Shown in pieces: positions 2,995 to 16,990 of a stretch of 64,000 nt of DNA. The stretch's first letter is position 1, and each line of letters begins with the position of its first letter. Source of the DNA: an uncultured Methanospirillum sp. (lineage in GTDB: Archaea > Halobacteriota > Methanomicrobia > Methanomicrobiales > Methanospirillaceae); contig CAZWTX010000009.1 of assembly GCA_964637135.1 (NCBI GenBank), positions 1-64,000 on the forward strand. Reading direction: 5' to 3'. Under the pieces are notes generated by a model. The model was not told where the DNA came from. It made no database searches and was given only the letters and a program-made list of their open reading frames with translations. The position numbers and the translations under genes are program-made.

Positions 2995-2998
2995 GGCC

Positions 2999-5383
2999 CT
3001 ATACGCGGTACTGTTCTGTTATCTTCTTCAGCCTGACACCGAGAGCGTGGAGATCTTCGGCAGTTTTCTCAGCTTTACGGGTAGTCTCAAGGTTTTTCTG
3101 CGTGGCGTCGCGTATATTCTCCATCGCCAGGGATATCTGGTCCATCCCGGAGACCTGCTCATGGATAGAGGAAGTAATCTCAATCGCAGCATGGGAAGAG
3201 TCTTCGATTGACCGTGCCAGCACCTTGATTGCCTCACGGGCATTACTGGTAAGCCTTACCGCATCTGCGACGGTATTCGTTCCTTTTTCCGTAGAACTCA
3301 CCGCAGAGGAGACGCCCCGCTGGATATCCATCAGGAGCATCCTGATATTCGAGGTGGCCTGTTTGGACTGCTGGGCGAGGTTATGAATCTCGTTTGCTAC
3401 CACGGCAAATCCTTTTCCGAAATCACCGGCCTTTGCTGCCTCGATGGAGGCATTCACTGCAAGGAGGTTTGACTGTTCGGAGATATCAGTCACGGTGGCA
3501 ATGATCTCCCCGATGGCCTGACTCTGTTCTGAGAGTTTAACAACGTTCATGCCGATGAGATCCATCTGTCTCTGGATATGGTGCATCCCGTCAAGAATCT
3601 CCTGGACGGATTTCTGACCGTCTTCAGATACCTCGATGGCCTTCATCGCCTTTTCAGAAACCGCCTTTGTCTTAAGGTTGACAATGTCCGTCTTTTTCCT
3701 GACATCCTCGACCGTATCCCTCGTATCGTTGACCACTACGGCCGTTTCAGAACTGGCAGAGGATAACTTGGTCGTGACCGTGAGGATCTCGGTGGACGCT
3801 GAAGAGAGAACCGAAACTCCTTCATACAACTCTTCAGTGATGAGTTTCATCAGCCGGGACAGTTCGATCCCGATGGTGTTCAGGGCATCGCGGTATGCCA
3901 CGAACTCGCCGTCAACCGGTATATTCTCGTCAAACCGGGCGGTAAAATCACCTGCAGCATAGTACCGGGCAAGCCGCATCGCTTCGTTCATCGGCACCGT
4001 GATCGTCTCAAGAGTCTTGTTAAAGCCGGCAATGATCATCCGGTACCCGCCATGGAAGGCTGTTTCGTTTCCCCGAACCGAGAGATCGCCGGTTCTCGCT
4101 GCATCGGTGAGCTTGATCGTCTCCTTATGGAGATGGTCAAGCGACTGGACCATCATCTGGAGGGCCGGCCGGATTTCGTCACGATCATCGACCAGCTCGG
4201 AAAAATGCTGAATATACTCACCGTTTGCGATCTTCTTGATGTTGCCCACAACATTGATCTGCAGATCGTCTGCAAACTCATCCATCGTCGCGGCCATTGT
4301 TCCGATCTCATCCCCCCGGTAGATATTAAGCCGGGCAGAGAGGTGGCCGTGTCTGAGCTCCTTGATCATGACCACCACCTGCTGAAGCGGGCCGGCGATG
4401 GATTGGCCAAATATGATGGCTATTACGGAGCCAATCACGATTGAACCGATCACGAGTGCGAAGATGGTATTGCGGAGGGTGTCTATCGGGCCGGTAAAAT
4501 CAGAAACATCTGCACGGGATACGATGTACCAGTCAAGCGGTTCGTAATAGGTGTATGCATCAATGACGTTTGTTCCGTCTGCCACGTGGGGGATGGAGCC
4601 TTCCTTGTTCTCGAACATCTCCTGGACAAATGGCTGGTCACTCCAGTTTTCTCCGTTTGCAGTCGGGTGAACCAGGACATTCCCGCTTCCGTCGATGACA
4701 TACATGTACCCGTGCTTTCCGACAACCGTCTCCTTGATACTATTCTTTACGACATCAAGGGTCTCCTGTTCCTCGGTCCCGACAAAGAGTACGCCGATTA
4801 TCTTTCCGTTCGGATCCTTGATCGGTTCATATGCGGTCACATAGCTCTTCCCGAAGAGATCCCGCTTGCCGTAATACGTCACCCCCTGTTCTACTGCGAC
4901 CTCGTAGACATTATCCGTCAGATGGGTACCGACTGCCCGCTGCCCGTCGGTTCCGATCACATTTGTCGATATCCGAACGGCATAGCTGTTATTGAACACC
5001 TGAAAAACCGTGGCAGCTCCGCCGACGAGGGTCTGCACCTCATCGACGATGAGAAAATTATCATTGACCGTATACTGGCTCCCGTCAGGGCCGGTCAGGA
5101 CCATTTTGTCTTTTACGATGGAAGGATCGCCTTTTGAGTAAAATATTTTTTTCAGGACATTCAGGTCGCTGTTTACCTTGTTCCGGGTCAGCTTGTAGAC
5201 ATCGTTGGTCCACCCCTTCATGTCCTTTACCTGGGTTTCAAGGAGGATGTCGATCTGTTCGTTGATGACGCTGCTAGAACTGGTATATGCCACCAGGCCG
5301 AGCATGAGCGTTGGGATGATTGCGAGAAAGAGACAGATGACGAGAATCTTGGTCCCGACTTTCATATTTGAAAAGACTGACAT
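2999..5383 (-). CDS. Membrane methyl-accepting chemotaxis protein (Cache sensor, HAMP domains)
   Basis: Two TM segments, Cache-like extracellular region, signalling hairpin [30 protein letters not shown]; start placed at MSVFSNMK (track start 5407). Confidence 0.92.
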
Positions 5384-5463
5384 ACCGGTATCCCCTTGTA
5401 TACACACTCAGGATTGCTGCTCCATGGTACGGGTTCTGAGTGGCAGATATTGCATAGCAACGC

Positions 5464-6486
5464 TCATAAAATATCTGATACGGTAAAATCCTGTCCCATG
5501 CTCTCTTCGGTATCCTGTATGATCATACCCGGATCAGAAAGCAGGATTTCCGCATTGATCAGCTGAAATGATTCATCTGTAACCGGCAGGAGAAACCGGG
5601 ACCCGCCGTGGATGTCTCCGGGGGATCCAATCTGGTCCGGACTGATCTGCCAAACCTCGCTGATCTGGTCAGCCAGGATGCCAAAGGTAACTGTGTTATT
5701 CGATATCACGATTACCTGGTTGAAATCAGTCAGTCCAGTTCCGGAGAGCTGAAGCAGTTCGCGCAGGTCCACGAGGGAGATGATTTCACCCCTGACCGGG
5801 CAGATCCCTGCGATGAAATCCGGGGTTCCCGGAACCGGGGTGATTTCCCGGGTCAGGATGACTTCCCGGATAAACCGCATCTCGATCGCATATTTCTGGT
5901 ACTGCAGGGAGAACCTCAGCACCGGAATGCGTGCCGGCTCTTCGTGAGCATCCGCCAGGATGGAGAGATCCTCGGCCCGGTTGATGAGTTGGGATGCAAC
6001 CGGGTCCGATGCTGCCGGGTGAGCGAGTACTTCCTCAGGCTGCACGATCCCGCCTGCTGACAGATCCTGGGACGCAAGCAGACGTTCAAGATCCTCGATA
6101 ATTAGGAATCCGTCATCGGAGATGATCATCCCCGGGGGGGTGAGCGGGGCCTGGGCCGGTTGGTCATCAGGATCGGGTTCGGGGGGGAAAAGGCTGATGT
6201 CATCGACCCAGAGGGCGATATCCCCCCGCTCTGACCGGGCAATAATCAGGTTGTCATCCGGCCGGGGGGCCTGCCATATACCCCCAAGGATCGATCCCAA
6301 CGGGTAGACGGGTATAGGGGTTCCATGAAAATTAATCGTCCAGAACGGTCGGGAGCCATCGTCAGGAGGGATCATGGCAACCATGCGGATCATGCAGACC
6401 GCTTTCTGAAAGGGGAGAGCTCCCGTTATCCCGTTCACCCTGAAATACAAGAAATTGTGCATGATTTCCCCGTGAGTATCATGCAT
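5464..6486 (-). CDS. cheW: Tandem CheW-CheW protein
   Basis: C-terminal CheW (ITPVPGTPDFIAGICPVRGEIISLVDL) plus a degenerate N-terminal CheW (INFHGTPIPVYPL...IALWVDDI). Confidence 0.8.
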   Translation of the reverse strand: MHDTHGEIMHNFLYFRVNGITGALPFQKAVCMIRMVAMIPPDDGSRPFWTINFHGTPIPVYPLGSILGGIWQAPRPDDNLIIARSERGDIALWVDDISLFPPEPDPDDQPAQAPLTPPGMIISDDGFLIIEDLERLLASQDLSAGGIVQPEEVLAHPAASDPVASQLINRAEDLSILADAHEEPARIPVLRFSLQYQKYAIEMRFIREVILTREITPVPGTPDFIAGICPVRGEIISLVDLRELLQLSGTGLTDFNQVIVISNNTVTFGILADQISEVWQISPDQIGSPGDIHGGSRFLLPVTDESFQLINAEILLSDPGMIIQDTEESMGQDFTVSDIL

Positions 6487-6894: not shown

Positions 6895-8013
6895 TCAGAT
6901 CCTGCAGGCTGACTGGAACCGTGAACGGATCGCTTCGGGAGAGAGAGGAATATTCGGGGCAGGTGAATTTCCCGGCTTTAATACGACGTGAATGAACCAC
7001 GGTCCCTCCTCCTGGGTCTGTCCGAGCGCCCGTTCCAGTTCATCCGGGGTGTGAACCTTCACCGTCCGGGATATCCCGGATGCCTGTGCCAGAAGTTCGA
7101 GGTCCACCCCGGCATACGCCGGCGAGCACTGGTTGCCGGTGCTCCCGTATACCCCGTTATCAAGCCCGATGATCACGAGGTTTTCAGGACAGACCTGTGA
7201 CACGGTCGCAAGCACGGCGGTTCCAAGCAGGCTTCCATCCCCGTCGAGGACCAGAACCCGTTTTTTTGTTCCGAGGGCGATACCAAGACCGATCGGGGTG
7301 GCCTGCGTGTACGACCCGAGCATATAGAAATTCCCGTCGCGATCAGCAGCAGCGTGGAGTTCTTTAGACGGAACCCCGAGATTGGTAACCACGAGATCAT
7401 CCGAGAGTTGATCCCCGATCACCCGGATGGCATCAGCCCGCTGCATGACCGGTACACGGAATTCCCTCCGGTAATCCAGCCTGACAACCCGTTCCCGGGA
7501 AGCCATGTCCGTTCCTGTCCCATTGGCGGCCCCTTCCCAGACCTTTGGCGAGACAAGAATCACATGCGGACGGGAACGGGCATATGCATCATCAATCGCC
7601 TCACCTATCCGGGCAATCTCATCACTCTCATGAATGATGGTACAGGCCACCTGGTACAATGCAAGAAGTTCAGGAATGTGGCGGTTAAATTGAACCTGTG
7701 CAACGATCTGCTCGTTATAATATCCCCGCCAGCTTGCGAGGATCACAAGGGGAAGCTCATACAGACAGGGAAGGGTCATGAGGGCATTGAGGGAATTTCC
7801 AAGCCCCGAACTCTGCATCTGCAGGATACACCGCGTTCCGGCAAGGGCAAGACCGGAACAGATTCCTATCCCGTCCTCTTCCCGGGAGATGGGAATGTAG
7901 ATAAAATCCTGTTCCAACAGAGCACAGAGATCCTTTGTCCGATCACAGGGAAGAGAGATCACATGGCGGATCCCCGCCGAACGGATAATGTCGGCAACCT
8001 CTCTCTCATGCAT
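6895..8013 (-). CDS. comDE: Sulfopyruvate decarboxylase, fused alpha/beta subunits
   Basis: SREEDGIGICSG and MQSSGLGNSLNAL (ComD); NFYMLGS and TPP motif DGDGSLL...DNG (ComE); adjacent to cysteate synthase. Confidence 0.92.
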   Translation of the reverse strand: MHEREVADIIRSAGIRHVISLPCDRTKDLCALLEQDFIYIPISREEDGIGICSGLALAGTRCILQMQSSGLGNSLNALMTLPCLYELPLVILASWRGYYNEQIVAQVQFNRHIPELLALYQVACTIIHESDEIARIGEAIDDAYARSRPHVILVSPKVWEGAANGTGTDMASRERVVRLDYRREFRVPVMQRADAIRVIGDQLSDDLVVTNLGVPSKELHAAADRDGNFYMLGSYTQATPIGLGIALGTKKRVLVLDGDGSLLGTAVLATVSQVCPENLVIIGLDNGVYGSTGNQCSPAYAGVDLELLAQASGISRTVKVHTPDELERALGQTQEEGPWFIHVVLKPGNSPAPNIPLSPEAIRSRFQSACRI

Positions 8014-9274
8014 ACCGGCTCACCCATCCAGTGACCAGAACAATCACTTCTGATTCAGAATAATCCTTTTCAAGGACGATATCAGGTTTTTTCACGATAC
8101 GATCCCGCACCAGGCGATATCCTCCGCCGGTAATACTTAACAGGACACAGTCATCTCTCATAATCGTTCCTTCATGCACGGCGTTGATTAATCCAGCCAC
8201 AGCAACGGCAGCTGCCGGATCAGGATCAATCCCTTCTGTCTCTTCGATGAGAGCGGATGCCCTGATAGCATCTGTTGTTGTCGCACTGCCCATCCGGCCA
8301 TGGGTAGCCTCAAGGGCATCGGCGACTCCTCCTGCTACCGCATACGGGGGAGAACGGTTGGTCAGGACATCGGCAAAAACAGCCGTGATCGAGCGTTCCG
8401 GATCAGGCATGTCTTCGTCAGGGATGAGAGTATGCCTCCCCTGCTGCCAGGCATTGACCATCGGAATGAACGGCTGATTCTGGACGAGGTACAGCCGGGG
8501 GAGGGTGTTGCCCCACCTACCATCGGCACAGAGACGAATCCCTGCTTCCCAGGCCGCTATCCCCCCAGTGCCACTTCCGACTCCTTGGACATACCAGTCA
8601 GGGATCCGCCCGATTGTTCGTGTTCCTTCAAGGACCACGACTCCCATTCCGTCTCTCCGGGCGATATTTTTTGCCCCGCCTTCGGAGACCACCCCGGGGA
8701 TGGTCGAGAGAAGCGAGCCCAGATGGATTGCATCCGTATAATCACCATCCACCGTGACCAGAAGGAGCTGTTCTGCCGGCCGGGTGGTACTGATCCGGGA
8801 TTGTGCTCCTGCCGGTACCACGATGATGACCGGCTGGCCGGTCTCAGAAGAGACCTGCGCAAAGGCACGGGCGGTATTCCCAGCCGATGCAACCACGATA
8901 ATCCCGCCACCATGTTCCCTGAGCCGAACCACCGTTGGATAAGCCTCAAATTCCTTAAATGATCCGCTCGTGACGTATGCACCCCGTGCCGGCCAGTACC
9001 CTGAAAAGACGATCCAGAGATTGGTCAGTCCGATTGCCTCCGCAAGACCCACACTCCGGTAACAAACCGGGGCGGCATCGGTGGGCAGTGTTCCTCCGGC
9101 CGGGAGCCAGTCTTTGTACCGGAAGAGGCCGGGTGCATCCCGCACCTGGAGCCGGACGGCATCGTACACTGACCTGAGCAATCCGTTGCATCCGGACGGG
9201 CAGGAGAGAAGATAGTGGTCATCCTCGTATATCCTGCCACAGACCGGGCAGGCGAGCCGGTAATGAGTCGTCAT
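8006..9274 (-). CDS. Cysteate synthase (threonine synthase-like PLP enzyme)
   Basis: N-terminal CPVC..C, SGSFKEFEA PLP lysine, ASAGNTARAFA, EGGAKNIARRDGMG; overlaps comDE. Confidence 0.9.
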   Translation of the reverse strand: MTTHYRLACPVCGRIYEDDHYLLSCPSGCNGLLRSVYDAVRLQVRDAPGLFRYKDWLPAGGTLPTDAAPVCYRSVGLAEAIGLTNLWIVFSGYWPARGAYVTSGSFKEFEAYPTVVRLREHGGGIIVVASAGNTARAFAQVSSETGQPVIIVVPAGAQSRISTTRPAEQLLLVTVDGDYTDAIHLGSLLSTIPGVVSEGGAKNIARRDGMGVVVLEGTRTIGRIPDWYVQGVGSGTGGIAAWEAGIRLCADGRWGNTLPRLYLVQNQPFIPMVNAWQQGRHTLIPDEDMPDPERSITAVFADVLTNRSPPYAVAGGVADALEATHGRMGSATTTDAIRASALIEETEGIDPDPAAAVAVAGLINAVHEGTIMRDDCVLLSITGGGYRLVRDRIVKKPDIVLEKDYSESEVIVLVTGWVSRYA

Positions 9275-10491
9275 CAGATACCCATCTCCTGATAAAAAAT
9301 TTTCTCCCGCATCAGGTCGCAGAGGTGTTCCGCCCTCCGGCGATCTGACTGCCTGAGACGTACCGGAAGCGTCCGGTCACCGACCGGGAGTGAACCGAGT
9401 GTTCCCGTATAACATCCTCCCGGGCATACCGCAATACAGGTACCGCATACAAAACAGGCGTTCTGATCGATGCGCCGGTCATGAATTGCATGAACCGGGC
9501 AGGTCACCGCTGCCCTGCACGGTGAACATTCCAGACAGGATTCTGCCACGTACCGGACTGACCGGGAGGTGGCCTGCCATACCCTGCCATAATGACTCAT
9601 CCCGATCTCCTGCCGGTCAGAGAGATCCACCACTGGAAGCGGGATGTCAGGATCCCGGACGAGGAGTGGGAGAAGAGCGGCTTCATCGAGGACCGGGATC
9701 GCGGTTGCGATACTCGTAATGCATTCCGGTCCGGCAGAGGTTTTAAAGCCCCCGCAGAAGTAAGGATCCATCCCTGACATCTCCCCGTGGACGGCAATAT
9801 TCGGCCGTACCGCACTGCTCCGGGTTCCGGTTCCGATGACAAATCCGGGTCCGCCATTCAGGAGGACCGGCGTTCCCGGCCTGATAAACCGCAGGGAGGG
9901 ATCGTTCTCCAGCGGGTTTATCTCACCGCACCCGGAGACTGTCACCTCTGAGAGGTCTCCGTTCAGGGGGGTTACGGAGAAAATCGTCTCTTTGGCGGTC
10001 CGGGAGGAATTCGTGACGGCGGTATAATTTTTAAACGCACTCCGCGTGGTAAACAGGCGGGCATGAGGAATATCAGAGCCCGGAATAGATGATTCATATG
10101 TTTTCCCTTCGGCAGAGACCGATATCGCTATCTCACGGCCGGCGATGATATCCTGGATCAGGTCTCCTCCCCCGTATTCCCGCGAAGCATGGGCAGTCCC
10201 GTACACGATGAGATCCACGAGGCCAAGCCGCTCGTTTGGACAGGGACCGGGGAGTGCAGGCACCCCGTTCAGGGTGATGGTATCGGCCCGGAGAAAAGTT
10301 CCGGGAGGCGCTACCGGGACGGTCAGGACCGCATATGTTCCCGACATCACCCCGCAGGTACCACAGGTAACGACATCCACACAGCCCCGTACCTCTTCAC
10401 CCTGTTCAACCCGTTTCTTCAGCTCGGCGGCGGTGAGGATGGTTGCCGACCCGTCCGCGATCCGTTTCCTGATCTCGTCAATGGTGTTCAT
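9274..10491 (-). CDS. COG1900-family (methanogenesis marker 16) metalloprotein with C-terminal ferredoxin
   Basis: VDVVTCGTCGVMSGT, GPCPNERLG, SGCGEINPLEND; Cys motifs CLECSPC...CP and CFVCGTCIAVCP. Confidence 0.85.
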   Translation of the reverse strand: MNTIDEIRKRIADGSATILTAAELKKRVEQGEEVRGCVDVVTCGTCGVMSGTYAVLTVPVAPPGTFLRADTITLNGVPALPGPCPNERLGLVDLIVYGTAHASREYGGGDLIQDIIAGREIAISVSAEGKTYESSIPGSDIPHARLFTTRSAFKNYTAVTNSSRTAKETIFSVTPLNGDLSEVTVSGCGEINPLENDPSLRFIRPGTPVLLNGGPGFVIGTGTRSSAVRPNIAVHGEMSGMDPYFCGGFKTSAGPECITSIATAIPVLDEAALLPLLVRDPDIPLPVVDLSDRQEIGMSHYGRVWQATSRSVRYVAESCLECSPCRAAVTCPVHAIHDRRIDQNACFVCGTCIAVCPGGCYTGTLGSLPVGDRTLPVRLRQSDRRRAEHLCDLMREKIFYQEMGI

Positions 10492-11123
10492 AACAGGCGA
10501 ATATCCTCCACTCTCACCCGCAGGCCGTCTCTGGTCAGGGCAACCAGGTTCACCACCCCGGTATGATTCAGATTCATCATGCAGAACCCGGGAAGAAACC
10601 GCATCCGCTTCCCGAATTCGGGAGGATGGTTCACCATCTCTGCAATCCCTTCAAATCCTATCATGTGGTAGGCCTCAAGATCCTTTACCTCTGCTCCCCG
10701 GGAACAGGCCGGGCCGACAACATGACAGGTGATCAGCCCGGATACCATGCTGACAGAGAGGACTTTCAGGACATGCTGGACCGGGCATCCGGCTCCTGCC
10801 GGTCTGCCGGTCAGGATATCACCGGGGACGATATTCATCCGTTCCACCATGTCAGGGCGGAATGGCAGGATGATCTTATGTGCGGAAATCTCACCCGGGA
10901 ACGGATGCAGGATGAAATCAGGAGCCCCGCCAAAGATATCCACCGGACAGCCGGAAGATTCCGGTGCAGGATGATCGGCGGAACCGGAACCGGTCCCATA
11001 ATACGGACAGGCGGAAAGCGCCAGCCTGCCTGCATGCACCAGTTCCATAAACCCGTCGCATTCCCGGCATCCGCATGCCCCGCAGTTCTTCCCGGGCGGC
11101 TCCCATGATTCGGCCCCAGACAT
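10488..11123 (-). CDS. Fe-S domain protein (RnfB/CdhE N-terminal-type cluster motif)
   Basis: PGKNCGACGCREC...ACPY; further Cys in GCPVQH and FCMM. Confidence 0.8.
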   Translation of the reverse strand: MSGAESWEPPGKNCGACGCRECDGFMELVHAGRLALSACPYYGTGSGSADHPAPESSGCPVDIFGGAPDFILHPFPGEISAHKIILPFRPDMVERMNIVPGDILTGRPAGAGCPVQHVLKVLSVSMVSGLITCHVVGPACSRGAEVKDLEAYHMIGFEGIAEMVNHPPEFGKRMRFLPGFCMMNLNHTGVVNLVALTRDGLRVRVEDIRLL

Positions 11124-11827
11124 TATTCACCCCGGTAAAAGAGGTCGGGTGCATCAAGACGCCTAAGGACGCCAAAATGATTCTTCCATCCGATCGTGGT
11201 CTTCCCGATGCAGACCGTGCAGACACCGAGGGGAGGGATACCCCTGAGGGTGATGGCCGAGGGATCGGTTATGTGGGGCGCATCCAGGATCATCTGGGTT
11301 AAAAACCGCATCCCGCTTCCCTGAAGTGCATTCGTCTCGACGATATCGATGTCATGGCGGATCTGCCTGATCCGCTCGCGGAAAACTTCTTTTTCTGCCT
11401 GAGAAACGAGATCGATCCTCGTCACCACGGCAATATCGGTAAGGGCGATCATCGGGGCCATTTTTGCCGGTGAATGAATTCCGGAGATGGCCGAGAGAAC
11501 AACGATCCCGAGTGACTGGGTGGTATAGGGGGTACAGCGGAGACATAACCCCGCACTTTCGACGATGAGGAAATCCGCATTTTCAGATTCTGCCCAGTCG
11601 ATCGCTTCGTCAAGGACCATGATACCAGCATGGTCAGGACAGAGATCTCCTGAATACACCTTCCTTGTTGGAATCCCGAACTCTTCTTTCAGTTCTTCGT
11701 CTTCTGTCGCGCTGACCACGTCAATCTTGAGGTACGCAGGCTTTTTCCCGGGAAGTGAACGGATAACCTGCCTGATGACAGCCGTTTTTCCTGATGACGG
11801 GGGACCTGCAACGGTGATCAGGTTCAT
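11123..11827 (-). CDS. G3E-family (CobW/HypB/UreG-like) GTPase
   Basis: GPPSSGKT, KID, DLCPDH, ESAGLCLRC, TRID, C-terminal CTVC. Confidence 0.85.
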   Translation of the reverse strand: MNLITVAGPPSSGKTAVIRQVIRSLPGKKPAYLKIDVVSATEDEELKEEFGIPTRKVYSGDLCPDHAGIMVLDEAIDWAESENADFLIVESAGLCLRCTPYTTQSLGIVVLSAISGIHSPAKMAPMIALTDIAVVTRIDLVSQAEKEVFRERIRQIRHDIDIVETNALQGSGMRFLTQMILDAPHITDPSAITLRGIPPLGVCTVCIGKTTIGWKNHFGVLRRLDAPDLFYRGE

Positions 11828-11834
11828 GAACGGT

Positions 11835-12614
11835 TCAGGCTCCCACCGGCGATATGATCAATTCCCCGGCCCGGATACGTTCTCTCATCAGGGAGATTGC
11901 CGTGTTACAGGAAACCATCTGGGTGATCGCTTCTTGCTCACTTCCATCCGGAATGATGACCTTCACCACGGCTCCGTTCCGCATGACGATCCGCCGGTCT
12001 GAAAGAAGCGATACGAGGGGATCGTGTGTTACAAACAGGAGTGCCTTGTTATGGCTCTTTAGTGCATCAATAACCCGTTCTTTGAAGATACCGGCATTTT
12101 CCACTTCATCAAGGAGGATTATCGGGGTATCGGAGATAAGGATGGCATCGGCGACCATGAGGGCACGGGTCTGGCCACCCGAAAGCTGGGTCATCCGGCA
12201 CCGGTCTGATACCGGTTCACCGGTAAACTGGTTTGCAAGGGTGATCGTCTCTTCCGTCAGGGTACGGTCCTCCATCCCGCGTGACTGCATATGCATGAGG
12301 AGGAAATCCTCAACCGTGAGGTCGCAGAGACACCGGTTATTCTGTGTGATGAGGGCTACCGGTTTCTTCGCCGGATCACGGATGAAACATTCCGGGGGAT
12401 CCCTGCCGTTCACCAGGATCCGGCGATGAGTGACAGTGTCTCCGGAAGCGAATATCTCGATATCGTTGATGAATGCACTCTTTCCCGAACCGGTCGGACC
12501 GACAATCGAGAGGGTATCTCCCGGACGGATCCGGATTGATCCGAATCCTTCAGTCATTCCGTTGCGATCTCTTCCCGGGAGGATCTCGATCTCATGAACC
12601 TGGTACTCGGCCAT
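11835..12614 (-). CDS. Stand-alone ABC-type ATPase
   Basis: GPTGSGKS, LSGGQ, LLDE, THD; no permease nearby. Confidence 0.88.
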   Translation of the reverse strand: MAEYQVHEIEILPGRDRNGMTEGFGSIRIRPGDTLSIVGPTGSGKSAFINDIEIFASGDTVTHRRILVNGRDPPECFIRDPAKKPVALITQNNRCLCDLTVEDFLLMHMQSRGMEDRTLTEETITLANQFTGEPVSDRCRMTQLSGGQTRALMVADAILISDTPIILLDEVENAGIFKERVIDALKSHNKALLFVTHDPLVSLLSDRRIVMRNGAVVKVIIPDGSEQEAITQMVSCNTAISLMRERIRAGELIISPVGA

Positions 12615-12663
12615 AGAGAATATTCGGAGGGAGTGAACATGAATCCTTTCCTTAAATTGCCAT

Positions 12664-12689
12664 TAATTTTCCTGATTGGGATAAAATTA
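12664..12689. promoter_or_regulatory. Imperfect palindrome in divergent promoter region (candidate operator)
   Basis: taatttt-cctgattgggat-aaaatta has 7-bp perfect arms and lies next to the AT-rich ttattaataaaa. Confidence 0.45.
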
Positions 12690-12709
12690 TTAATAAAAAC
12701 TATACAATA

Positions 12710-13213
12710 ATGATTATGTTTTCACGGGACATCTTCCGATCAGACTTTAAGGAAGCCCTGGAACGAGCACTTGACCGGCGGCAGATAACCCTGAAAGAAC
12801 TGGCAGAAACAGCTGGTATCCCGGTTGCAACCATCTACAAGATTACGTCAGAGGAGCGGGACCCCCGGTTTTCAACGGTCAGGGCAATCGTCAGGGCGCT
12901 CGAACCCTACGAGCAGGACACCATTGCGATCATCGGTGCAAAATTTCTTCTTGACGAGATTGGACCCCGGACAATCGAGAGAAACGGCAGGAAGATCCGT
13001 GTCCGGGGATACCCGGCACATACCATGGAGGAGTGTATCATTTCAGCGGTGAGGGCAGAGAAGGAAGGAGCGGCAGGGATCATATGTGCCCCGATTCTTG
13101 CAGCACTCATCGAGCGGATCGTCGATATCCCGGTGGTCATGCTGAGACCGGACTCCCAGTCATACCTGGAAGCGATAGATAATCTCTCAAACCAGCTCGA
13201 TGAAACGGGATAA
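12710..13213 (+). CDS. XRE/Cro HTH transcriptional regulator with C-terminal putative ligand-binding domain
   Basis: TLKELAETAGIPVATIYKITSEERDPRFSTV; divergent from the CoM operon. Confidence 0.85.
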   Translation: MIMFSRDIFRSDFKEALERALDRRQITLKELAETAGIPVATIYKITSEERDPRFSTVRAIVRALEPYEQDTIAIIGAKFLLDEIGPRTIERNGRKIRVRGYPAHTMEECIISAVRAEKEGAAGIICAPILAALIERIVDIPVVMLRPDSQSYLEAIDNLSNQLDETG

Positions 13214-13768: not shown

Positions 13769-16700
13769 TTACAGGGTGAAATTTCCGGACTGTTGCTTCA
13801 GGCGGGAGGTGAGATCCGAGATCTCATGGGTCGAAGCGGCTATCTCCTGAGCCGATCGGCCGACAAGGTCCATATCCATAGAGACCTCCTCCATCAGGTG
13901 CAGGTTCTTCTCGCTCTGCCGGTTAACAGAGCCGACTCCATCCAGGAGATGATTCATTAGCACTTCTTCTGATTCTGTTGCCTGTGATATCTGCTCCATT
14001 CCTTCCCGAACAATGTGTACCTTGCTGATAATGACGGAGAGGGCTTCGATCGCCTGGTGAACACTCTCTATAGCGCCTCCGACCTCGTTGTACGAGGACT
14101 GGATCGAATCGACGGTCATCATCGTGCTCTTCTGTATCCCCCGGATCAGTTCTTCTATCTGGGTGGTCGCAACCTTGGACTGGCCGGCGAGATTTTTCAC
14201 CTCCTGGGCAACCACGGCAAATCCTTTTCCGTGTTCGCCGGCCCGTGCCGCCTCGATAGCGGCATTGAGTGCAAGGAGGTTTGTCTGGCTTGATATGTCT
14301 GCTATCATCCGGACAATCTTGTCAATCTCGTTCATCTGGCGGCTGAGATCGGTGATCTGATCCATGCTTGCAGAACTAATCGCACCAACCGACTCCATCT
14401 TTCGGTTTGCATCGTTTCCAAGTTCCCTTGCCTGTTCTCCCTGGAGCGATGCAGATCTGGCTTCTTCCATGAGCCGGTCTACGATCTGCCTGATCTCACC
14501 GACGGACCTCCAGAGCGTCGAAATTTCATCAGAGATCCTGATAATCTCCTCGAGCTGCCCCCGTGCCCCTGTTGTCGATGCATGGACCCTGCTGATGACA
14601 TTCTGAACCGAGCCGGCAATAGCGCCGGTCTGTTCGAGCGTGGTCCCCGTTACGGCAGACAGCCGGTTGATAGAATTTTCAAGTTCTTCAATGAGGGAAG
14701 AAACCGCGTCAAGGGCAGTATTGCAGTCCTTTTTAATCTGGTTGAGGGGATCGCCGGGTATCATTTCAGACCGGTTGGTGAGATCGCCCTGTGCAACCTG
14801 TGCCATACAGTTTTCAAATCCAGCGGCACTTTGCGAGAGCAAGGCAGCTTTCTGGCGGGATTCTGATAGCAGATGTTCGACCTCCTGTTCCTTTTCCTTT
14901 CGTGCGGTGATGTCGTTGTATACAATCAGGTAGTTTTCAAGATCTCCTGAAATAGAGAAGACTGGGATGCCATGCTGTTCAAGAATCCGGATACCGGCGG
15001 GAAAATCAAGAGTCAGTTCACCAAACGTCGGACGCTGATCGGCCAGGAGTTCTTTCAGTCCTGAACCGGAATATTCCATGACCGGGATATCGGTCGGTCT
15101 CATGGAGAGGAGCTGGTCGTGGGAATATCCGGTCAGGGTCAGATATGCATCATTCGTGACCAGTATGTTCTGATCCTGGTCGATGAGGAGGATCGGCATC
15201 GGGATCTGCTGGACGATGGAGTTGTTGAGATGCTCAAGTTTCCTGATTTTGATCAGGTTTTTCTCCAGTTCTTCTTCTCCTTCCTTGCGATCAAGATACG
15301 TCTTCAGCATCTCGGCAAGCGAATTTATGAGGTTGCGTTCTTCAGTCAGGAACGGGCCTTCCTGTTCGGGTGGTTTCTCCTCAAGGTATACCACATCAAC
15401 CCGGGATGAAATCCCGAACCGGGTGGTAAATGCCGCCGACTGGATCCACGGGGTATCACGATACCCGTCAGACCGGAATTGCGTATCACCGTGAATCACC
15501 CGGGCGGCGCAGCATTCAGGATACTGCCATCCCGGGGGAATGAGATTCGCCACCCGGGATAACACATCGCCTGTCTGAAGCGTATCATCCTGGATAAGCG
15601 AGGCCGTAGAATAGAACAACCGCTGTTCCTTCACCCGTTCGCCGAGATCGTGCATCTTGACGGCAAGTTCCTGCTCGTTTTCCTTCCGGTCGATATATGT
15701 CTTCAGCATCTCGGCGAGCGAATTGATCAGGTTGCGTTCCTCAAGCAGGAACGGACCTTCATACTCGGCTTTTTGTTCGGTACAGTACACCACCTCGATG
15801 GAGCCCTGGCCGCCGTGTCGTGAGGTGAATGAAGCAGTCTGTTTCCAACAGGAATCCCGGTACCCAGGAGTTTTTGCACTCATTCCAGCATACGTGATGG
15901 CAGCTTCGCAGCATTCAGGATACTGCCATCCGGGAGGAATGAGATTGACCACCCGGGAAAGGACATCGCCAACCTCAAGCATATCATCCTGAATAAGCGA
16001 GGCCGTAGAATAGAACAGCCGTTGTTCCTTCACCCGTTCGCCGAGGGCATGCATCTTATCGTCAAGTTCCTGCTCGTTTTCCTTCCGGTCCAGGTAAATC
16101 CGGATCAGTTCGGAAAGCGAATTTATGAGGTTCCGCTCCTCAAGCAGGAACGGGCCTTCCTGTTCAGGTGGTTTCTCCTCCAGGTACACAACTTCAATGG
16201 ACCCTCTTTTTCCGGTTCTGGTGGTGAAGATCCCTTTCTGTATCCATTGGGTTTCTCGGAATGCCGGTGAGGAGCGGGAATGTCCGGAGTACTGGATCCT
16301 GGCAGCACAGACATCCGGGTACTGCCATCCGGGGGGAATCATTTCTGCTATCCGCCCGAGCACATCTTCCACCGCGATTGTATCATCCTGGATCAGTGAG
16401 GCAGTCGAGTAGAACAGGCGTTGTTCCTTCACCCGTTCACCATAATCATGCTCGAGTTTTTCTTTTATCCGGGCGGCTTCCTGTTCGGCAATGACCCGGA
16501 GGGTGATATCCTTGAATACCAGGATTGTCTCCTCACCATACTCACCTTCGGCAGAAACCGGAATCGGGTATCCTTCGAGATACCGGGTGCCGGCAGGGAA
16601 CGAGACCGGGGTTGTCCGGATTTCCGGCACATCCCGGGTTGTCATGAAATAATCCGGCAGATCGGGGATTATAGCAGGTAATGATTTCCCTGTCAGATCG

Positions 16701-16990
16701 TCGCGGGAATACCCGCTCATTTTCAGGAAGGATGGATTGGCATCCGAGATCTCATGTGATTCGTTCAGGATGAGGACCGGATGCGGACCTCCATTGAGGA
16801 GCCGGGTCAGGCGGGTGAGATCACGCGACTGTTTCCCGATTCTGGCCATAGCCTGACTGACCAGTTCCTGGTCACCGGGAGGCAGTGTGTCCGGTACGGC
16901 GCCGGGATATTCTTCGGTTAGCGAATTGCTGACTATTGAGGTGAGGAATGATTTAACATAGGTATCCATGATCGTCACTGTACAAGTCAA
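13769..16990 (-). CDS. Soluble MCP with PAS, three GAF-like repeats, PAS and signalling domain
   Basis: No TM segment; PAS-like ANPSFLKMSGYSRDDL and [44 protein letters not shown]. Confidence 0.92.
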   Translation of the reverse strand: MTCTVTIMDTYVKSFLTSIVSNSLTEEYPGAVPDTLPPGDQELVSQAMARIGKQSRDLTRLTRLLNGGPHPVLILNESHEISDANPSFLKMSGYSRDDLTGKSLPAIIPDLPDYFMTTRDVPEIRTTPVSFPAGTRYLEGYPIPVSAEGEYGEETILVFKDITLRVIAEQEAARIKEKLEHDYGERVKEQRLFYSTASLIQDDTIAVEDVLGRIAEMIPPGWQYPDVCAARIQYSGHSRSSPAFRETQWIQKGIFTTRTGKRGSIEVVYLEEKPPEQEGPFLLEERNLINSLSELIRIYLDRKENEQELDDKMHALGERVKEQRLFYSTASLIQDDMLEVGDVLSRVVNLIPPGWQYPECCEAAITYAGMSAKTPGYRDSCWKQTASFTSRHGGQGSIEVVYCTEQKAEYEGPFLLEERNLINSLAEMLKTYIDRKENEQELAVKMHDLGERVKEQRLFYSTASLIQDDTLQTGDVLSRVANLIPPGWQYPECCAARVIHGDTQFRSDGYRDTPWIQSAAFTTRFGISSRVDVVYLEEKPPEQEGPFLTEERNLINSLAEMLKTYLDRKEGEEELEKNLIKIRKLEHLNNSIVQQIPMPILLIDQDQNILVTNDAYLTLTGYSHDQLLSMRPTDIPVMEYSGSGLKELLADQRPTFGELTLDFPAGIRILEQHGIPVFSISGDLENYLIVYNDITARKEKEQEVEHLLSESRQKAALLSQSAAGFENCMAQVAQGDLTNRSEMIPGDPLNQIKKDCNTALDAVSSLIEELENSINRLSAVTGTTLEQTGAIAGSVQNVISRVHASTTGARGQLEEIIRISDEISTLWRSVGEIRQIVDRLMEEARSASLQGEQARELGNDANRKMESVGAISSASMDQITDLSRQMNEIDKIVRMIADISSQTNLLALNAAIEAARAGEHGKGFAVVAQEVKNLAGQSKVATTQIEELIRGIQKSTMMTVDSIQSSYNEVGGAIESVHQAIEALSVIISKVHIVREGMEQISQATESEEVLMNHLLDGVGSVNRQSEKNLHLMEEVSMDMDLVGRSAQEIAASTHEISDLTSRLKQQSGNFTL
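15280..16450 (-). repeat. Three tandem 399-bp (133-aa) intragenic repeats
   Basis: (t/c)tgttccttcacccgttc starts at 15623, 16022 and 16421; GERVKEQRLFYSTASLIQDD...IPPGWQYP...GPFLxEERNLINSL occurs three times. Confidence 0.95.

What the first reader, a model, noticed from the sequence alone, without database searches (positions are those of the whole stretch)
10488..12614. Uncharacterised ABC-ATPase / G3E-GTPase / Fe-S triad heading the coenzyme M operon
Seen: three genes are tightly coupled (7-bp gap, then stop/start overlaps at 11123, 10488-10491, 9274 and 8006-8013) to the COG1900 protein, cysteate synthase and comDE. The ATPase has no permease or binding protein nearby. The GTPase has Cys motifs (CPDH, CLRC, CTVC) and the third protein has a four-Cys Fe-S motif. 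Known: G3E GTPases (HypB/UreG/CobW) are metallochaperones, and SufC is a precedent for a non-transport ABC ATPase. Inference: this is a dedicated soluble metal/Fe-S/sulfur maturation or activation system for the last step of CoM synthesis.
Basis: partly seen in the sequence, partly recalled or inferred. Interest (0 to 1): 0.75.

Follow-up and report, generated by a model that had tools for sequence, protein, structure and literature searches.

The report
ATPase-GTPase-FeS cassette tied to sulfite step
Three tightly coupled genes (a soluble ABC-type ATPase, a metal-chaperone-type GTPase and a small iron-sulfur protein) head this methanogen's coenzyme M operon, and across archaea and bacteria they travel with the enzymes that build sulfonates from sulfite, so they likely help supply or hand over sulfite, whose source in such anaerobes is unknown.

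Summary
Six minus-strand genes (ABC ATPase, G3E GTPase, COG2000 Fe-S protein, MMP16, cysteate synthase, ComDE) are joined by a 7-nt gap and stop/start overlaps. No permease is present.

The co-location of the trio with CoM genes is already in print (PMC12068725, Fig 2 legend, "role remains unknown").

The cassette follows the first, sulfite-consuming enzyme, whichever it is:
- cysteate synthase in Methanomicrobiales, Methanothrix, Methanococcoides and several bacteria;
- the unrelated ComA in Methanobacteriales, where 45 of 47 full-length copies lie just downstream of comA.

All 17 trio-bearing bacterial genomes tested have ComA or cysteate synthase. Only 4 of 10 have any COG1900 protein.

A Bacteroidales variant inserts a NifS-like cysteine desulfurase into the cassette. 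The NTPase pair also occurs with other metal-binding partners (DUF364, SBP-like).

Best reading (inferred): an NTP-driven sulfur/metal-handling module that provides sulfite for sulfonate synthesis.

Against necessity: 47 of 95 ComA-positive Methanobacteriales lack it, and 10 of 17 trio bacteria also carry CysD. The mechanism is untested.

The parts
11835..12614 (-). Soluble ABC-type ATPase, 259 aa (P0001). Motifs: Walker A G39-S46, Q91, LSGGQ 144-148, Walker B D169-E170, H197. The D-loop is replaced by a family-specific ENAGI.
11123..11827 (-). G3E-family P-loop GTPase, 234 aa (P0002). Invariant residues: C63-P-D-H66, C95-x-R-C98, C203-x-x-C206. Scores are below the HypB and UreG equivalog cut-offs.
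10488..11123 (-). COG2000 Fe-S protein, 211 aa (P0003). N-terminal PF04060 4-Cys domain (C14, C17, C22, C39). C-terminal all-beta domain with conserved C113, H117, C181, H187 and no solved structural match.
9274..10491 (-). MMP16 (COG1900 plus ferredoxin domain), the CoM synthase family
   Evidence: PMC12068725 (passages read)
8006..9274 (-). Cysteate synthase (O-phosphoserine + sulfite -> cysteate)
6895..8013 (-). Fused sulfopyruvate decarboxylase ComDE
12615..12709 (.). AT-rich 95-nt divergent intergenic region upstream of the operon; likely promoter region (inferred from composition only)
12710..13213 (+). Divergent HTH_3 regulator with a weak PrpR_N-like domain. It is conserved beside CoM clusters in relatives and in Methanothrix, with or without the trio.

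Best explanation
The three genes encode a soluble ABC-type ATPase, a G3E GTPase and a small Fe-S protein that form one conserved cassette, and this cassette likely serves the sulfite-requiring first step of sulfonate synthesis (cysteate synthase or ComA), being predicted to make or hand over sulfite from reduced sulfur, rather than the last, MMP16 step.

Shown here:
- the gene anatomy, motifs and coupling;
- the cassette's conservation as a unit in archaea and bacteria;
- its placement next to either of two unrelated sulfite-consuming enzymes;
- its presence in bacteria only where one of those enzymes is encoded (17 of 17 tested);
- a variant cassette that contains a NifS-like cysteine desulfurase;
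- reuse of the GTPase-ATPase pair with other metal-binding partners.

Inferred:
- The GTPase (CPDH site) and the ATPase load or operate a Cys2His2 metal or cluster site in the beta domain of the COG2000 protein.
- Sulfide, or cysteine-derived persulfide in the desulfurase-containing variant, is oxidised there.
- Electrons leave through the N-terminal [4Fe-4S] domain.
- NTP hydrolysis pays for or gates the reaction.
- Sulfite passes to cysteate synthase or ComA.

None of these chemical steps was tested.
For: 1. Cassette unity. In the best 80 genome loci found with a COG2000 alignment (572 relatives confirmed), a GTPase gene precedes COG2000 in 77 and an ABC gene in 74. The eight loci lacking one are listed. 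L017 and L061 begin just upstream of COG2000. L028 and L083 have a split GTPase. For L072 the ABC gene is visible. L088 has neither.

2. Neighbours in those 80 loci:
- ComA (PF02679) within four genes upstream in 31;
- cysteate synthase adjacent in 16;
- a two-component system in 19 Bacteroidales loci;
- none of these in 14.

3. Methanobacteriales sample of 101 genomes.
- COG2000 is in 48 (47 full-length plus one 67-residue remnant beside comA) and ComA in 95.
- All 48 have ComA.
- 45 of the 47 full-length copies lie within about 3 kb downstream of comA on the same strand.
- No other CoM gene is in those loci.
- In three trio-negative relatives the same synteny holds with exactly the three genes missing (L125, L129, L130).

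4. Window's order, 101 genomes.
- COG2000 59, cysteate synthase 61, both 57, COG2000 only 2 (one at a contig end), CS only 4.
- ComA is found in 1 of 101.
- Three genomes without MMP16 keep trio-CS-ComDE (CS; gene order read in one of them, L006).

5. Bacteria.
- Trio-CS is followed by a BioF/Kbl/SPT-type acyltransferase, plus an SDR in L031, in a Bacillota, a Spirochaetota and an Anaerofustis genome.
- Trio-CS-ComDE occurs in an Anaerolineales genome.
- The CS copies score 449-600 bits against the 324.9-bit cut-off.
- Where the trio is unlinked, every genome has exactly one of the two enzymes: 2 CS + 3 ComA and 3 CS + 2 ComA.
- In a 121-genome Bacteroidales sample all 6 COG2000-positive genomes have one (5 ComA, 1 CS), against 65 of 115 negatives.

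6. All four 'group B' Bacteroidales loci read Crp-like regulator <-> ABC-GTPase-cysteine desulfurase-COG2000. The desulfurase hits PF00266, and the two scored against NF002806 gave 358 and 310 bits against a 304 cut-off.

7. Literature. Both ComA and cysteate synthase use sulfite (PMC9457059, passages). The in-cell source of sulfite for CoM is described as unclear (PMC6286981, passages).
Against: - The cassette is not required wherever sulfite is consumed. 47 of 95 ComA-positive Methanobacteriales, 65 ComA/CS-positive Bacteroidales and 4 CS-positive genomes of the window's order lack COG2000.
- There is no complementary distribution with sulfate activation. 10 of 17 trio-bearing bacterial genomes also encode CysD.
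- The window's own genome holds three small NIR_SIR-type proteins and two PAPS_reduct-family proteins. These are other conceivable sulfite sources.
- Stand-alone trios exist. G081 has one with no CS, ComA or MMP16 found. G033 and G091 carry second copies.
- Within the window's order, linkage to MMP16 is as tight as linkage to CS, so that order alone cannot separate the two readings.
- No known sulfite-forming enzyme resembles these proteins. A six- or four-electron sulfur oxidation on such a small protein has no precedent.
- Related genomes are not independent, so all the counts overstate support.
Confidence: 0.45

Rival explanations
1. A specialised Fe-S or other metallocluster assembly machine of the SUF kind. 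A desulfurase or sulfide gives sulfur, the G3E GTPase gives metal, the ABC ATPase drives the scaffold, and COG2000 is scaffold or carrier. Its client is unknown and merely happens to be encoded near CoM or cysteate genes.
For: - A NifS-like desulfurase lies inside the cassette in 4 of 4 group B loci.
- SufC is the textbook non-transport ABC ATPase (established knowledge). The archaeal SmsC (MJ0035, 9h78) is among the PDB sequence hits of P0001 at E 1e-10.
- The paralogous GTPase-ATPase pair is followed by DUF364/DUF4213 'putative heavy-metal chelation' proteins in 6 of 7 fetched loci, two of them (L102, L103) beside a Peripla_BP_2 binding-protein gene and one (L107) beside a FecCD permease with its ATPase.
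- In the window's own genome and in L101 the pair lies beside an SBP_bac_6 protein.
- COG2000 has a conserved Cys2His2 set.
Against: - It does not explain why the cassette sits beside two unrelated enzymes whose only common feature is the substrate sulfite. ComA is not known to need a cluster (recalled).
- There is no SufB/SufD-like scaffold.
- P0001 is no closer to SufC-type than to transporter NBDs. The best PDB hits are ABCB-type, E 3e-17.
- The window cassette has no desulfurase.
Confidence: 0.2
2. One reading: a dedicated maturation or activation system for MMP16 (COG1900), the last step of CoM synthesis.
For: - COG2000 lies directly upstream of MMP16 in 51 of 55 genomes of the order. Presence and absence of the two co-vary: 55 both, 4 + 4 single, 38 neither.
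- MMP16 carries a ferredoxin domain.
- G3E proteins are metallochaperones (established knowledge).
Against: - Four genomes of genus g4 have the trio and no MMP16.
- Genus g22 keeps trio-CS-ComDE about 200 kb from MMP16.
- In Methanobacteriales the trio is beside comA and MMP16 is not in the locus.
- In five trio-negative Methanobacteriales, comA is followed directly by MMP16 without the trio.
- 6 of 10 trio bacteria have no PF01837 protein.
- Four genomes have MMP16 without COG2000.
Confidence: 0.1
3. Sulfite provision by the opposite chemistry. The cassette processes an imported oxyanion (sulfate, thiosulfate or sulfite itself), for example an ATP/GTP-driven low-potential reduction of sulfate to sulfite.
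For: - PiT-family (PHO4) or PstS-like/permease genes lie next to the cassette in four bacterial loci: L080, L086, L110 and L075.
- The own-genome paralogous pair is embedded in an NMT1-type binding protein/permease/ATPase operon with an SBP_bac_6 protein.
- GTPase-coupled sulfate activation has a precedent in CysDN (established knowledge).
Against: - No transporter is conserved with the cassette. None of the gene families shared by 20 or more of the 80 loci that were annotated is a permease.
- The window operon has none.
- The desulfurase variant points to reduced sulfur.
- ABC ATPases are not known to adenylate substrates (established knowledge).
Confidence: 0.1
4. The ATPase energises a distant membrane transporter, and the other two genes are regulators or unrelated passengers.
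For: P0001's nearest sequence relatives are transporter NBDs.
Against: - There is translational coupling of all three genes.
- The three are conserved as a unit across two domains of life without a conserved permease.
- The D-loop region is altered (ENAGI, invariant in 18 of 18 sequences).
Confidence: 0.03

Closest known systems
'ATPase / Ni2+-binding GTPase / COG2000 Fe-S protein' genes noted beside CoM genes (PMC12068725, PLoS Genet 2025, Fig 2 legend)
   Same: The same three gene families and the same co-location with CoM biosynthesis genes in several methanogen orders. The legend and section 6 were read.
   Different: The paper states that the role is unknown and does not mention sulfite (0 occurrences in the main text). 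New here are the link to ComA and cysteate synthase, the bacterial occurrences, the desulfurase variant and the paralogous pairs. The paper's S1 Fig (neighbourhood PDF) was not seen and may already show some of these neighbourhoods.
SUF / SMS Fe-S assembly systems (SufS desulfurase, SufBC2D or SmsCB with an ABC ATPase)
   Same: A soluble ABC ATPase works with a sulfur donor and a Cys-bearing partner. Desulfurase genes occur inside the group B cassette.
   Different: There is no SufB/SufD homologue. A G3E GTPase is added. The partner is a 211-aa [4Fe-4S]-domain protein with a beta domain that has no solved match. P0001 is not specifically SufC-like.
HypB / UreG nickel chaperones (G3E GTPases)
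   Same: P-loop, ExxG and a Cys-Pro-x-His motif at the position of UreG's CPH. PF02492 membership.
   Different: Scores fall below the equivalog cut-offs: HypB 54.9 against 121.2 bits and UreG 28.1 against 204.2 bits. Two extra invariant CxxC pairs are present. No hydrogenase or urease context. The partner is an ABC ATPase.
Sulfite-forming sulfur-oxidation systems (reverse DsrAB/DsrC, sHdr-LbpA) and CysDN/CysH sulfate assimilation
   Same: These have the proposed output (sulfite). They use protein-bound sulfur and Fe-S electron relays, or GTPase-coupled activation (established knowledge, recalled).
   Different: No sequence or fold relation was found. No siroheme, CCG or PAPS-reductase domain is in the cassette. 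The resemblance is functional and hypothetical only.
CoFeSP large subunit / RnfB N-terminal [4Fe-4S] domain (PF04060)
   Same: The first 45 residues of COG2000 align to this domain with all four Cys.
   Different: The rest of the protein (residues 60-211) is unrelated to corrinoid or Rnf proteins.

Membership tests
ABC ATPase superfamily (PF00005) | Walker A, Q-loop, LSGGQ signature, Walker B Asp-Glu, H-loop | tested here: met
   PF00005 scores 51.7 bits against a cut-off of 25. All motifs are present and invariant in 18 homologues.
ABC transporter (as part of a transport system) | Cognate permease or binding-protein genes in the operon | tested here: not met
   None in the window operon or its flanks. 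No permease is among the annotated gene families shared by 20 or more of the 80 related loci. P0001 falls below every NCBIfam transporter cut-off.
G3E GTPases (PF02492 CobW/HypB/UreG) | P-loop GxxGxGKT, ExxG, NKxD-type G4 motif, Cys/His metal motif between them | tested here: met
   PF02492 scores 50.1 bits against 20.7. GPPSSGKT, ESAG and CPDH align to UreG's CPH. The G4 motif is a variant: TRID here and TKGD in most relatives.
HypB or UreG orthologues | Score above the equivalog cut-off | tested here: not met
   TIGR00073 scores 54.9 against 121.2; TIGR00101 scores 28.1 against 204.2.
PF04060 putative Fe-S cluster domain (CoFeSP/RnfB type) | Four conserved Cys in about 30 residues | tested here: met
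   33.1 bits against 23. C14, C17, C22 and C39 are invariant in 26 sequences. Aligns to CoFeSP 4djd. Cluster binding itself is not testable here.
SUF-like Fe-S assembly system | SufB/SufD-type scaffold plus SufC-type ATPase plus cysteine desulfurase | tested here: not met
   No scaffold homologue was found. A desulfurase is present only in group B loci (4 of 4) and not in the window. P0001 is not specifically SufC-like.
Rieske-type Cys2His2 cluster domain | CxH ... CxxH motifs on a Rieske beta fold | tested here: inconclusive
   The conserved C113-x3-H117 and C181-x5-H187 have different spacing. No Rieske chain is among the fold matches. The best Z is 4.8.
Coenzyme M biosynthesis operon (phosphoserine route) | Cysteate synthase, ComDE and MMP16 above family cut-offs | tested here: met
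   TIGR03844 scores 570.3 against 324.9. TIGR03845/03846 score 200.4 and 232.4. TIGR03287 scores 508.6 against 363.95.

The most novel reading that the evidence does not exclude
The cassette is the missing anaerobic 'sulfite synthase'. It would be an ATP- and GTP-powered machine in which sulfide or cysteine-persulfide sulfur is oxidised to sulfite at a Cys2His2 metal site on the COG2000 protein. Electrons would be drawn off through its [4Fe-4S] domain. The sulfite would feed ComA or cysteate synthase for coenzyme M and sulfonolipid synthesis in sulfidic, oxygen-free habitats.
Probability: 0.25. Interest if true: 0.9.

Novelty: new variant of a known kind. Interest (0 to 1): 0.72.

Why it matters
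Every methanogen that makes coenzyme M needs sulfite, a compound that is toxic to it and scarce in sulfidic habitats. Where that sulfite comes from is described as unclear in the literature read here (PMC6286981).

A conserved three-gene cassette follows the sulfite-consuming enzyme through two unrelated CoM routes and into bacterial cysteate/sulfonolipid-type clusters. That gives concrete knockout and reconstitution targets for the question.

It would also define a new way of pairing a G3E GTPase with a soluble ABC ATPase. The same pair appears with other metal-binding partners (DUF364, SBP-like).

If the sulfite link is wrong, the cassette is still an uncharacterised, widely distributed NTPase/Fe-S system.

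Tried and rejected
- Complex prediction of ATPase + GTPase + COG2000, with COG2000 as the scored partner and own alignments: no verdict, score 0.00 against a mark of 0.32, controls not run. This is no evidence either way.
- Fold search of the COG2000 model (pLDDT 89.3). Foldseek against PDB gave 0 matches at E <= 0.001. VIA-align against 48,161 chains gave a best Z of 4.8 (58 residues, PUA-like) and none at Z >= 5. This does not prove a new fold.
- ESM Atlas with residues 58-211 returned only the protein's own family.
- Fusions: among 118 representatives at E <= 0.001, no informative fused form was seen. The 'longer' length class of the other protein search was not run.
- Expression: no RNA holder is listed among 24 runs, and read laying was not run. 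The DNA is held by digester, wastewater and sediment metagenome runs.
- Functional-replacement test: in 10 trio-negative CS loci of Bacteroidales, no APS/PAPS reductase or other known sulfite-forming gene lay among the two to four CS-flanking genes per locus that were annotated.
- Complementary distribution with sulfate activation: not found (CysD in 10 of 17). The background frequency of CysD was not measured.
- A first alignment (A2) was too diverse for the locus scan. A narrower one (A3) was used, so the 80 loci are biased to 'group C' relatives and to Methanobacteriaceae.
- Earlier notes of this scan by place and by sequence gave nothing.
- Literature searches:
  - 'source of sulfite' + coenzyme M + methanogen: 0 papers.
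  - 'COG2000': only the MMP16 paper is relevant.
  - The broader sulfite searches listed no paper whose title or abstract assigns a function to these genes; four of them were opened, by term search only.


Full report
**1. What is in the window**

Six minus-strand ORFs run from 12614 down to 6895:
- a 259-aa ABC-type ATPase (11835-12614);
- a 234-aa G3E GTPase (11123-11827);
- a 211-aa Fe-S protein (10488-11123);
- MMP16 (9274-10491);
- cysteate synthase (8006-9274);
- fused ComDE (6895-8013).

The junctions are a 7-nt gap, TAATG, ATGA, a 1-nt overlap and an 8-nt overlap. Family assignments are firm for the three CoM enzymes. TIGR03287 scores 508.6 bits, TIGR03844 570.3 bits, and TIGR03845/03846 are above cut-off.

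The three upstream genes match only superfamily models: PF00005 at 51.7 bits, PF02492 at 50.1 bits and PF04060 at 33.1 bits. Upstream lies a 95-nt AT-rich spacer and a divergent HTH_3 regulator. Downstream and further upstream are chemotaxis genes. No permease or binding protein is nearby.

**2. The three proteins**

*ATPase.* It has a complete ABC catalytic set (Walker A, Q-loop, LSGGQ, Walker B D-E, H-loop). These are invariant across 18 homologues. The usual D-loop region is replaced by an invariant ENAGI. Its best solved relatives are transporter NBDs (E 3e-17). The archaeal SmsC (MJ0035) appears at E 1e-10.

*GTPase.* It aligns to HypB and UreG (E 6e-7 to 1e-4). Its C63-P-D-H66 lies on UreG's CPH metal motif. 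Also invariant in 19 homologues are C95-x-R-C98 and C203-x-x-C206. It scores far below the HypB and UreG equivalog cut-offs.

*Fe-S protein (COG2000 in the literature).* It has the CoFeSP/RnfB-type 4-Cys domain. A linker follows, then an all-beta domain that carries nearly invariant C113, P114, H117, C181 and H187.
- An AlphaFold model is confident (pLDDT 89.3).
- It has no match in PDB by Foldseek (0 at E <= 0.001).
- It has only weak matches by VIA-align (best Z 4.8).
- The family is small: 118 clusters at 50% identity reach E <= 0.001 among 1.84 billion representatives, many of them fragments.

**3. What is already in print**

The MMP16 paper (PMC12068725) states the following in the legend of Fig 2. 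[quoted passage not shown]
- The word sulfite does not occur in its main text.
- A whole-library search for 'COG2000' found only this work.
- The co-location itself is therefore known. A function is not.

**4. Same order as the window (101 genomes, own included)**

| Feature | Genomes |
|---|---|
| COG2000 | 59 |
| True MMP16 (E < 1e-100) | 59 |
| Cysteate synthase | 61 |
| ComA | 1 (a 62%-complete genome) |

- COG2000 against MMP16: 55 both, 4 COG2000 only, 4 MMP16 only, 38 neither.
- COG2000 against CS: 57 both, 2 COG2000 only, 4 CS only, 38 neither. One of the two COG2000-only genomes is cut at a contig end.
- In 51 of the 55, COG2000 lies directly upstream of MMP16.

The exceptions are informative:
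- Genus g4 has no MMP16. One genome there reads regulator <-> ABC-GTPase-COG2000-CS-ComDE (L006).
- Genus g22 keeps trio-CS-ComDE about 200 kb from an MMP16-ComDE pair (L008, L009, L015).
- Two genomes carry MMP16-CS-ComDE with no trio (L012, L014).
- Stand-alone trios occur (L007, L010, L011).

Within this order alone the trio cannot be assigned to a step.

**5. Beyond the order**

A locus scan used an alignment of distant COG2000 proteins. It confirmed 572 relatives and returned the best 80. The set is biased towards Methanobacteriaceae and Bacteroidales.
- A GTPase gene precedes COG2000 in 77 loci and an ABC gene in 74.
- Of the eight shortfalls listed, L017 and L061 begin just upstream of COG2000. 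L028 and L083 have split GTPase genes, L072's ABC gene is visible, and one locus (L088) has neither.

The cassette occurs in Methanobacteriaceae, Methanothrix, Methanococcoides, Methanocaldococcus, Methanopyri and Methanomassiliicoccus. It also occurs in Bacteroidales, Spirochaetota, Bacillota, Anaerolineales and Anaerofustis.

Neighbours:
- comA immediately upstream in 31 loci;
- cysteate synthase adjacent in 16 loci;
- a HisKA_3/LuxR two-component pair in 19 Bacteroidales loci;
- none of these in 14.

In Methanothrix the order is regulator <-> CS-ABC-GTPase-COG2000. In Methanococcoides and Methanomassiliicoccus it is CS-trio-ComD-ComE with MMP16 convergent.

In a Bacillota, a Spirochaetota and an Anaerofustis genome the order is trio-CS followed by a BioF/Kbl/serine-palmitoyltransferase-type enzyme. 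L031 adds a short-chain dehydrogenase. An Anaerolineales genome has trio-CS-ComDE. The bacterial CS copies pass the cysteate synthase cut-off at 449-600 bits.

The CS/acyltransferase/reductase set matches the published logic of capnine-type sulfonolipid synthesis (PMC11211663, passages). That identification is inferred, since the acyltransferases are below all equivalog cut-offs.

**6. Second lineage test**

A 101-genome sample of Methanobacteriales was searched.
- ComA is present in 95.
- COG2000 is present in 48: 47 full-length plus one 67-residue remnant right beside comA.
- All 48 have ComA.
- 45 of the 47 full-length copies lie within about 3 kb downstream of comA on the same strand.
- No other CoM gene is in these loci.

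Eight trio-negative comA loci were fetched.
- Three keep the same flanks (FtsZ, PK_C-like | comA | CofE-like, TFE) with precisely the three genes absent.
- Five read comA-MMP16 followed by HdrC-, HdrB- and HdrA/MvhD-like genes.

**7. Bacterial genomes where the trio is not next to either enzyme**

- Of five Bacteroidales genomes, 2 have CS and the other 3 have ComA.
- Of five further genomes (two Spirochaetota, three Bacteroidota), 3 have CS and the other 2 have ComA.
- In a 121-genome Bacteroidales sample, ComA is in 51, CS in 20 (no genome has both) and COG2000 in 6.
- All 6 COG2000-positive genomes have one of the two enzymes, against 65 of 115 COG2000-negative genomes.

Altogether 17 of 17 trio-bearing bacterial genomes examined encode ComA or CS. 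By contrast only 4 of 10 have any COG1900-family protein. This separates the trio from the MMP16 step. It ties the trio to the sulfite-consuming step, the only feature that ComA (PEP + sulfite) and cysteate synthase (phosphoserine + sulfite) share (PMC9457059, passages).

**8. Clues to mechanism**

(a) The four weaker COG2000 hits in the Bacteroidales sample form a distinct 'group B'. All four loci read Crp-like regulator <-> ABC-GTPase-NifS/IscS-like cysteine desulfurase-COG2000.
- The desulfurase is above the NF002806 cut-off in the two loci scored against it.
- It is 59-61% identical to the L108 copy in the other two.
- The cassette can therefore take sulfur from cysteine.

(b) The GTPase-ATPase pair is reused.
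- The window's own genome has a second pair (42% and 38% identity) in the order GTPase-ATPase.
- That pair sits inside an NMT1-type binding protein/permease/ATPase operon and is followed by a signal-less SBP_bac_6 protein.
- This second type occurs in 17 of 101 genomes of the order, three of them without COG2000.
- In 6 of 7 fetched loci it is followed by a DUF364/DUF4213 'putative heavy-metal chelation' protein.
- Two of those loci (L102, L103) have a Peripla_BP_2 binding-protein gene nearby, and one (L107) a FecCD permease with its ATPase.
- The pair thus looks like a general NTP-driven module with exchangeable metal-binding partners.

(c) PiT-family or PstS-like transporter genes lie next to the cassette in four bacterial loci.

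**9. Results against a simple sulfite-source model**

- Half of ComA-positive Methanobacteriales and most ComA/CS-positive Bacteroidales lack the cassette.
- 10 of 17 trio bacteria also carry CysD.
- The window's genome lacks an ATP sulfurylase of the PF01747 type. It does have two PAPS_reduct-family and three small NIR_SIR-type proteins.
- Reverse operation of such small sulfite reductases has been proposed as a sulfite source (PMC6286981, passages).
- One complete genome has a trio with no CS, ComA or MMP16 found (G081).
- In 10 trio-negative CS loci no known sulfite-forming gene takes the trio's place among the flanking genes annotated.

**10. Reading**

The best-supported statement is genomic. 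The cassette is a unit and is not a transporter. It belongs with the sulfite-dependent first step of sulfonate synthesis rather than with MMP16.

The mechanism is inferred:
- The GTPase and ATPase load or drive a Cys2His2 site on COG2000.
- That site turns reduced sulfur into sulfite, with the [4Fe-4S] domain as electron outlet.
- The cassette may be an accessory route used when sulfate-derived sulfite is unavailable.

A SUF-like cluster-assembly role with an unknown client is the main rival. The complex prediction gave no verdict, and no RNA data were found.

Three earlier notes of this scan on other genomes reached a similar reading. They were seen after my own analysis and are not independent evidence.

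Noticed in passing
own genome G000:C1:138853-143779 (L005:3854-8780): A second GTPase-ATPase pair (42% and 38% identical to the window's, in reversed order). It sits inside an NMT1-like binding protein/permease/ABC ATPase operon and is followed by a signal-less SBP_bac_6 protein. A creatininase-family gene lies upstream.
   Followed up: partly
L102-L107 (relatives of the window's order): The second-type GTPase-ATPase pair is followed by a DUF364/DUF4213 'putative heavy-metal chelation' protein in 6 of 7 fetched loci. Two loci have a Peripla_BP_2 binding-protein gene nearby and one a FecCD permease with its ATPase. This is a possible metal or tetrapyrrole handling cassette.
   Followed up: partly
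L108:5751-9158, L109:5652-9002, L112, L113 (Bacteroidales): A four-gene variant: ABC-GTPase-NifS/IscS-like cysteine desulfurase-COG2000, with a divergent Crp/Fnr-type regulator. It is found in all four 'group B' loci.
   Followed up: partly
window 12710-13213 (+): An HTH_3 regulator with a weak PrpR_N-like domain is divergent from the operon. Homologues (36-57% identity) sit in the same position beside CoM clusters in relatives and in Methanothrix, also where the trio is absent (L012, L013). It is a candidate CoM-operon regulator.
   Followed up: partly
The genome search, window's order: 37 of 101 genomes had none of COG2000, cysteate synthase or true MMP16, and only one of these 37 (62% complete) had a ComA match. 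All have the about 510-aa COG1900a/L-ASST paralogue, apart from one 71%-complete genome with no match. These are possible CoM auxotrophs or users of an unknown route.
   Followed up: no
L124, L126, L127, L128, L131 (trio-negative Methanobacteriales): comA is followed directly by MMP16. In L124 the next three genes are HdrC-like, HdrB-like (CCG) and HdrA/MvhD-like (Pfam). The other four loci have ORFs of the same sizes and order that were not annotated. An Hdr-like module is thus attached to the first and last CoM steps.
   Followed up: no
G308:C21:79244-80378: A 67-residue remnant of COG2000 lies about 200 nt downstream of comA. The cassette is apparently decaying in place.
   Followed up: no
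L080, L086, L110, L075: PiT-family (PHO4) or PstS-like binding protein plus permease genes lie directly beside the cassette in four bacterial loci. They may import an inorganic oxyanion.
   Followed up: no
L031:8477-14069, L075:8471-13223, L095:8429-13318: The trio, cysteate synthase and a BioF/Kbl/SPT-type acyltransferase (plus an SDR in L031) occur in Bacillota, Spirochaetota and Anaerofustis. This suggests capnine-like sulfonolipid synthesis outside Bacteroidota.
   Followed up: partly
L033:10768-11649 and 31 other Methanobacteriaceae loci: A CofE-like (PF01996, below CofE cut-offs) gene follows COG2000 on the same strand. It stays next to comA where the trio is missing (L125, L130).
   Followed up: no
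window 649-6486 and 13769-16990: The operon is flanked by chemotaxis genes: CheA-like 649-2994, Cache/HAMP MCP 2999-5407, double CheW 5464-6486, and PAS MCP 13769-16990.
   Followed up: no
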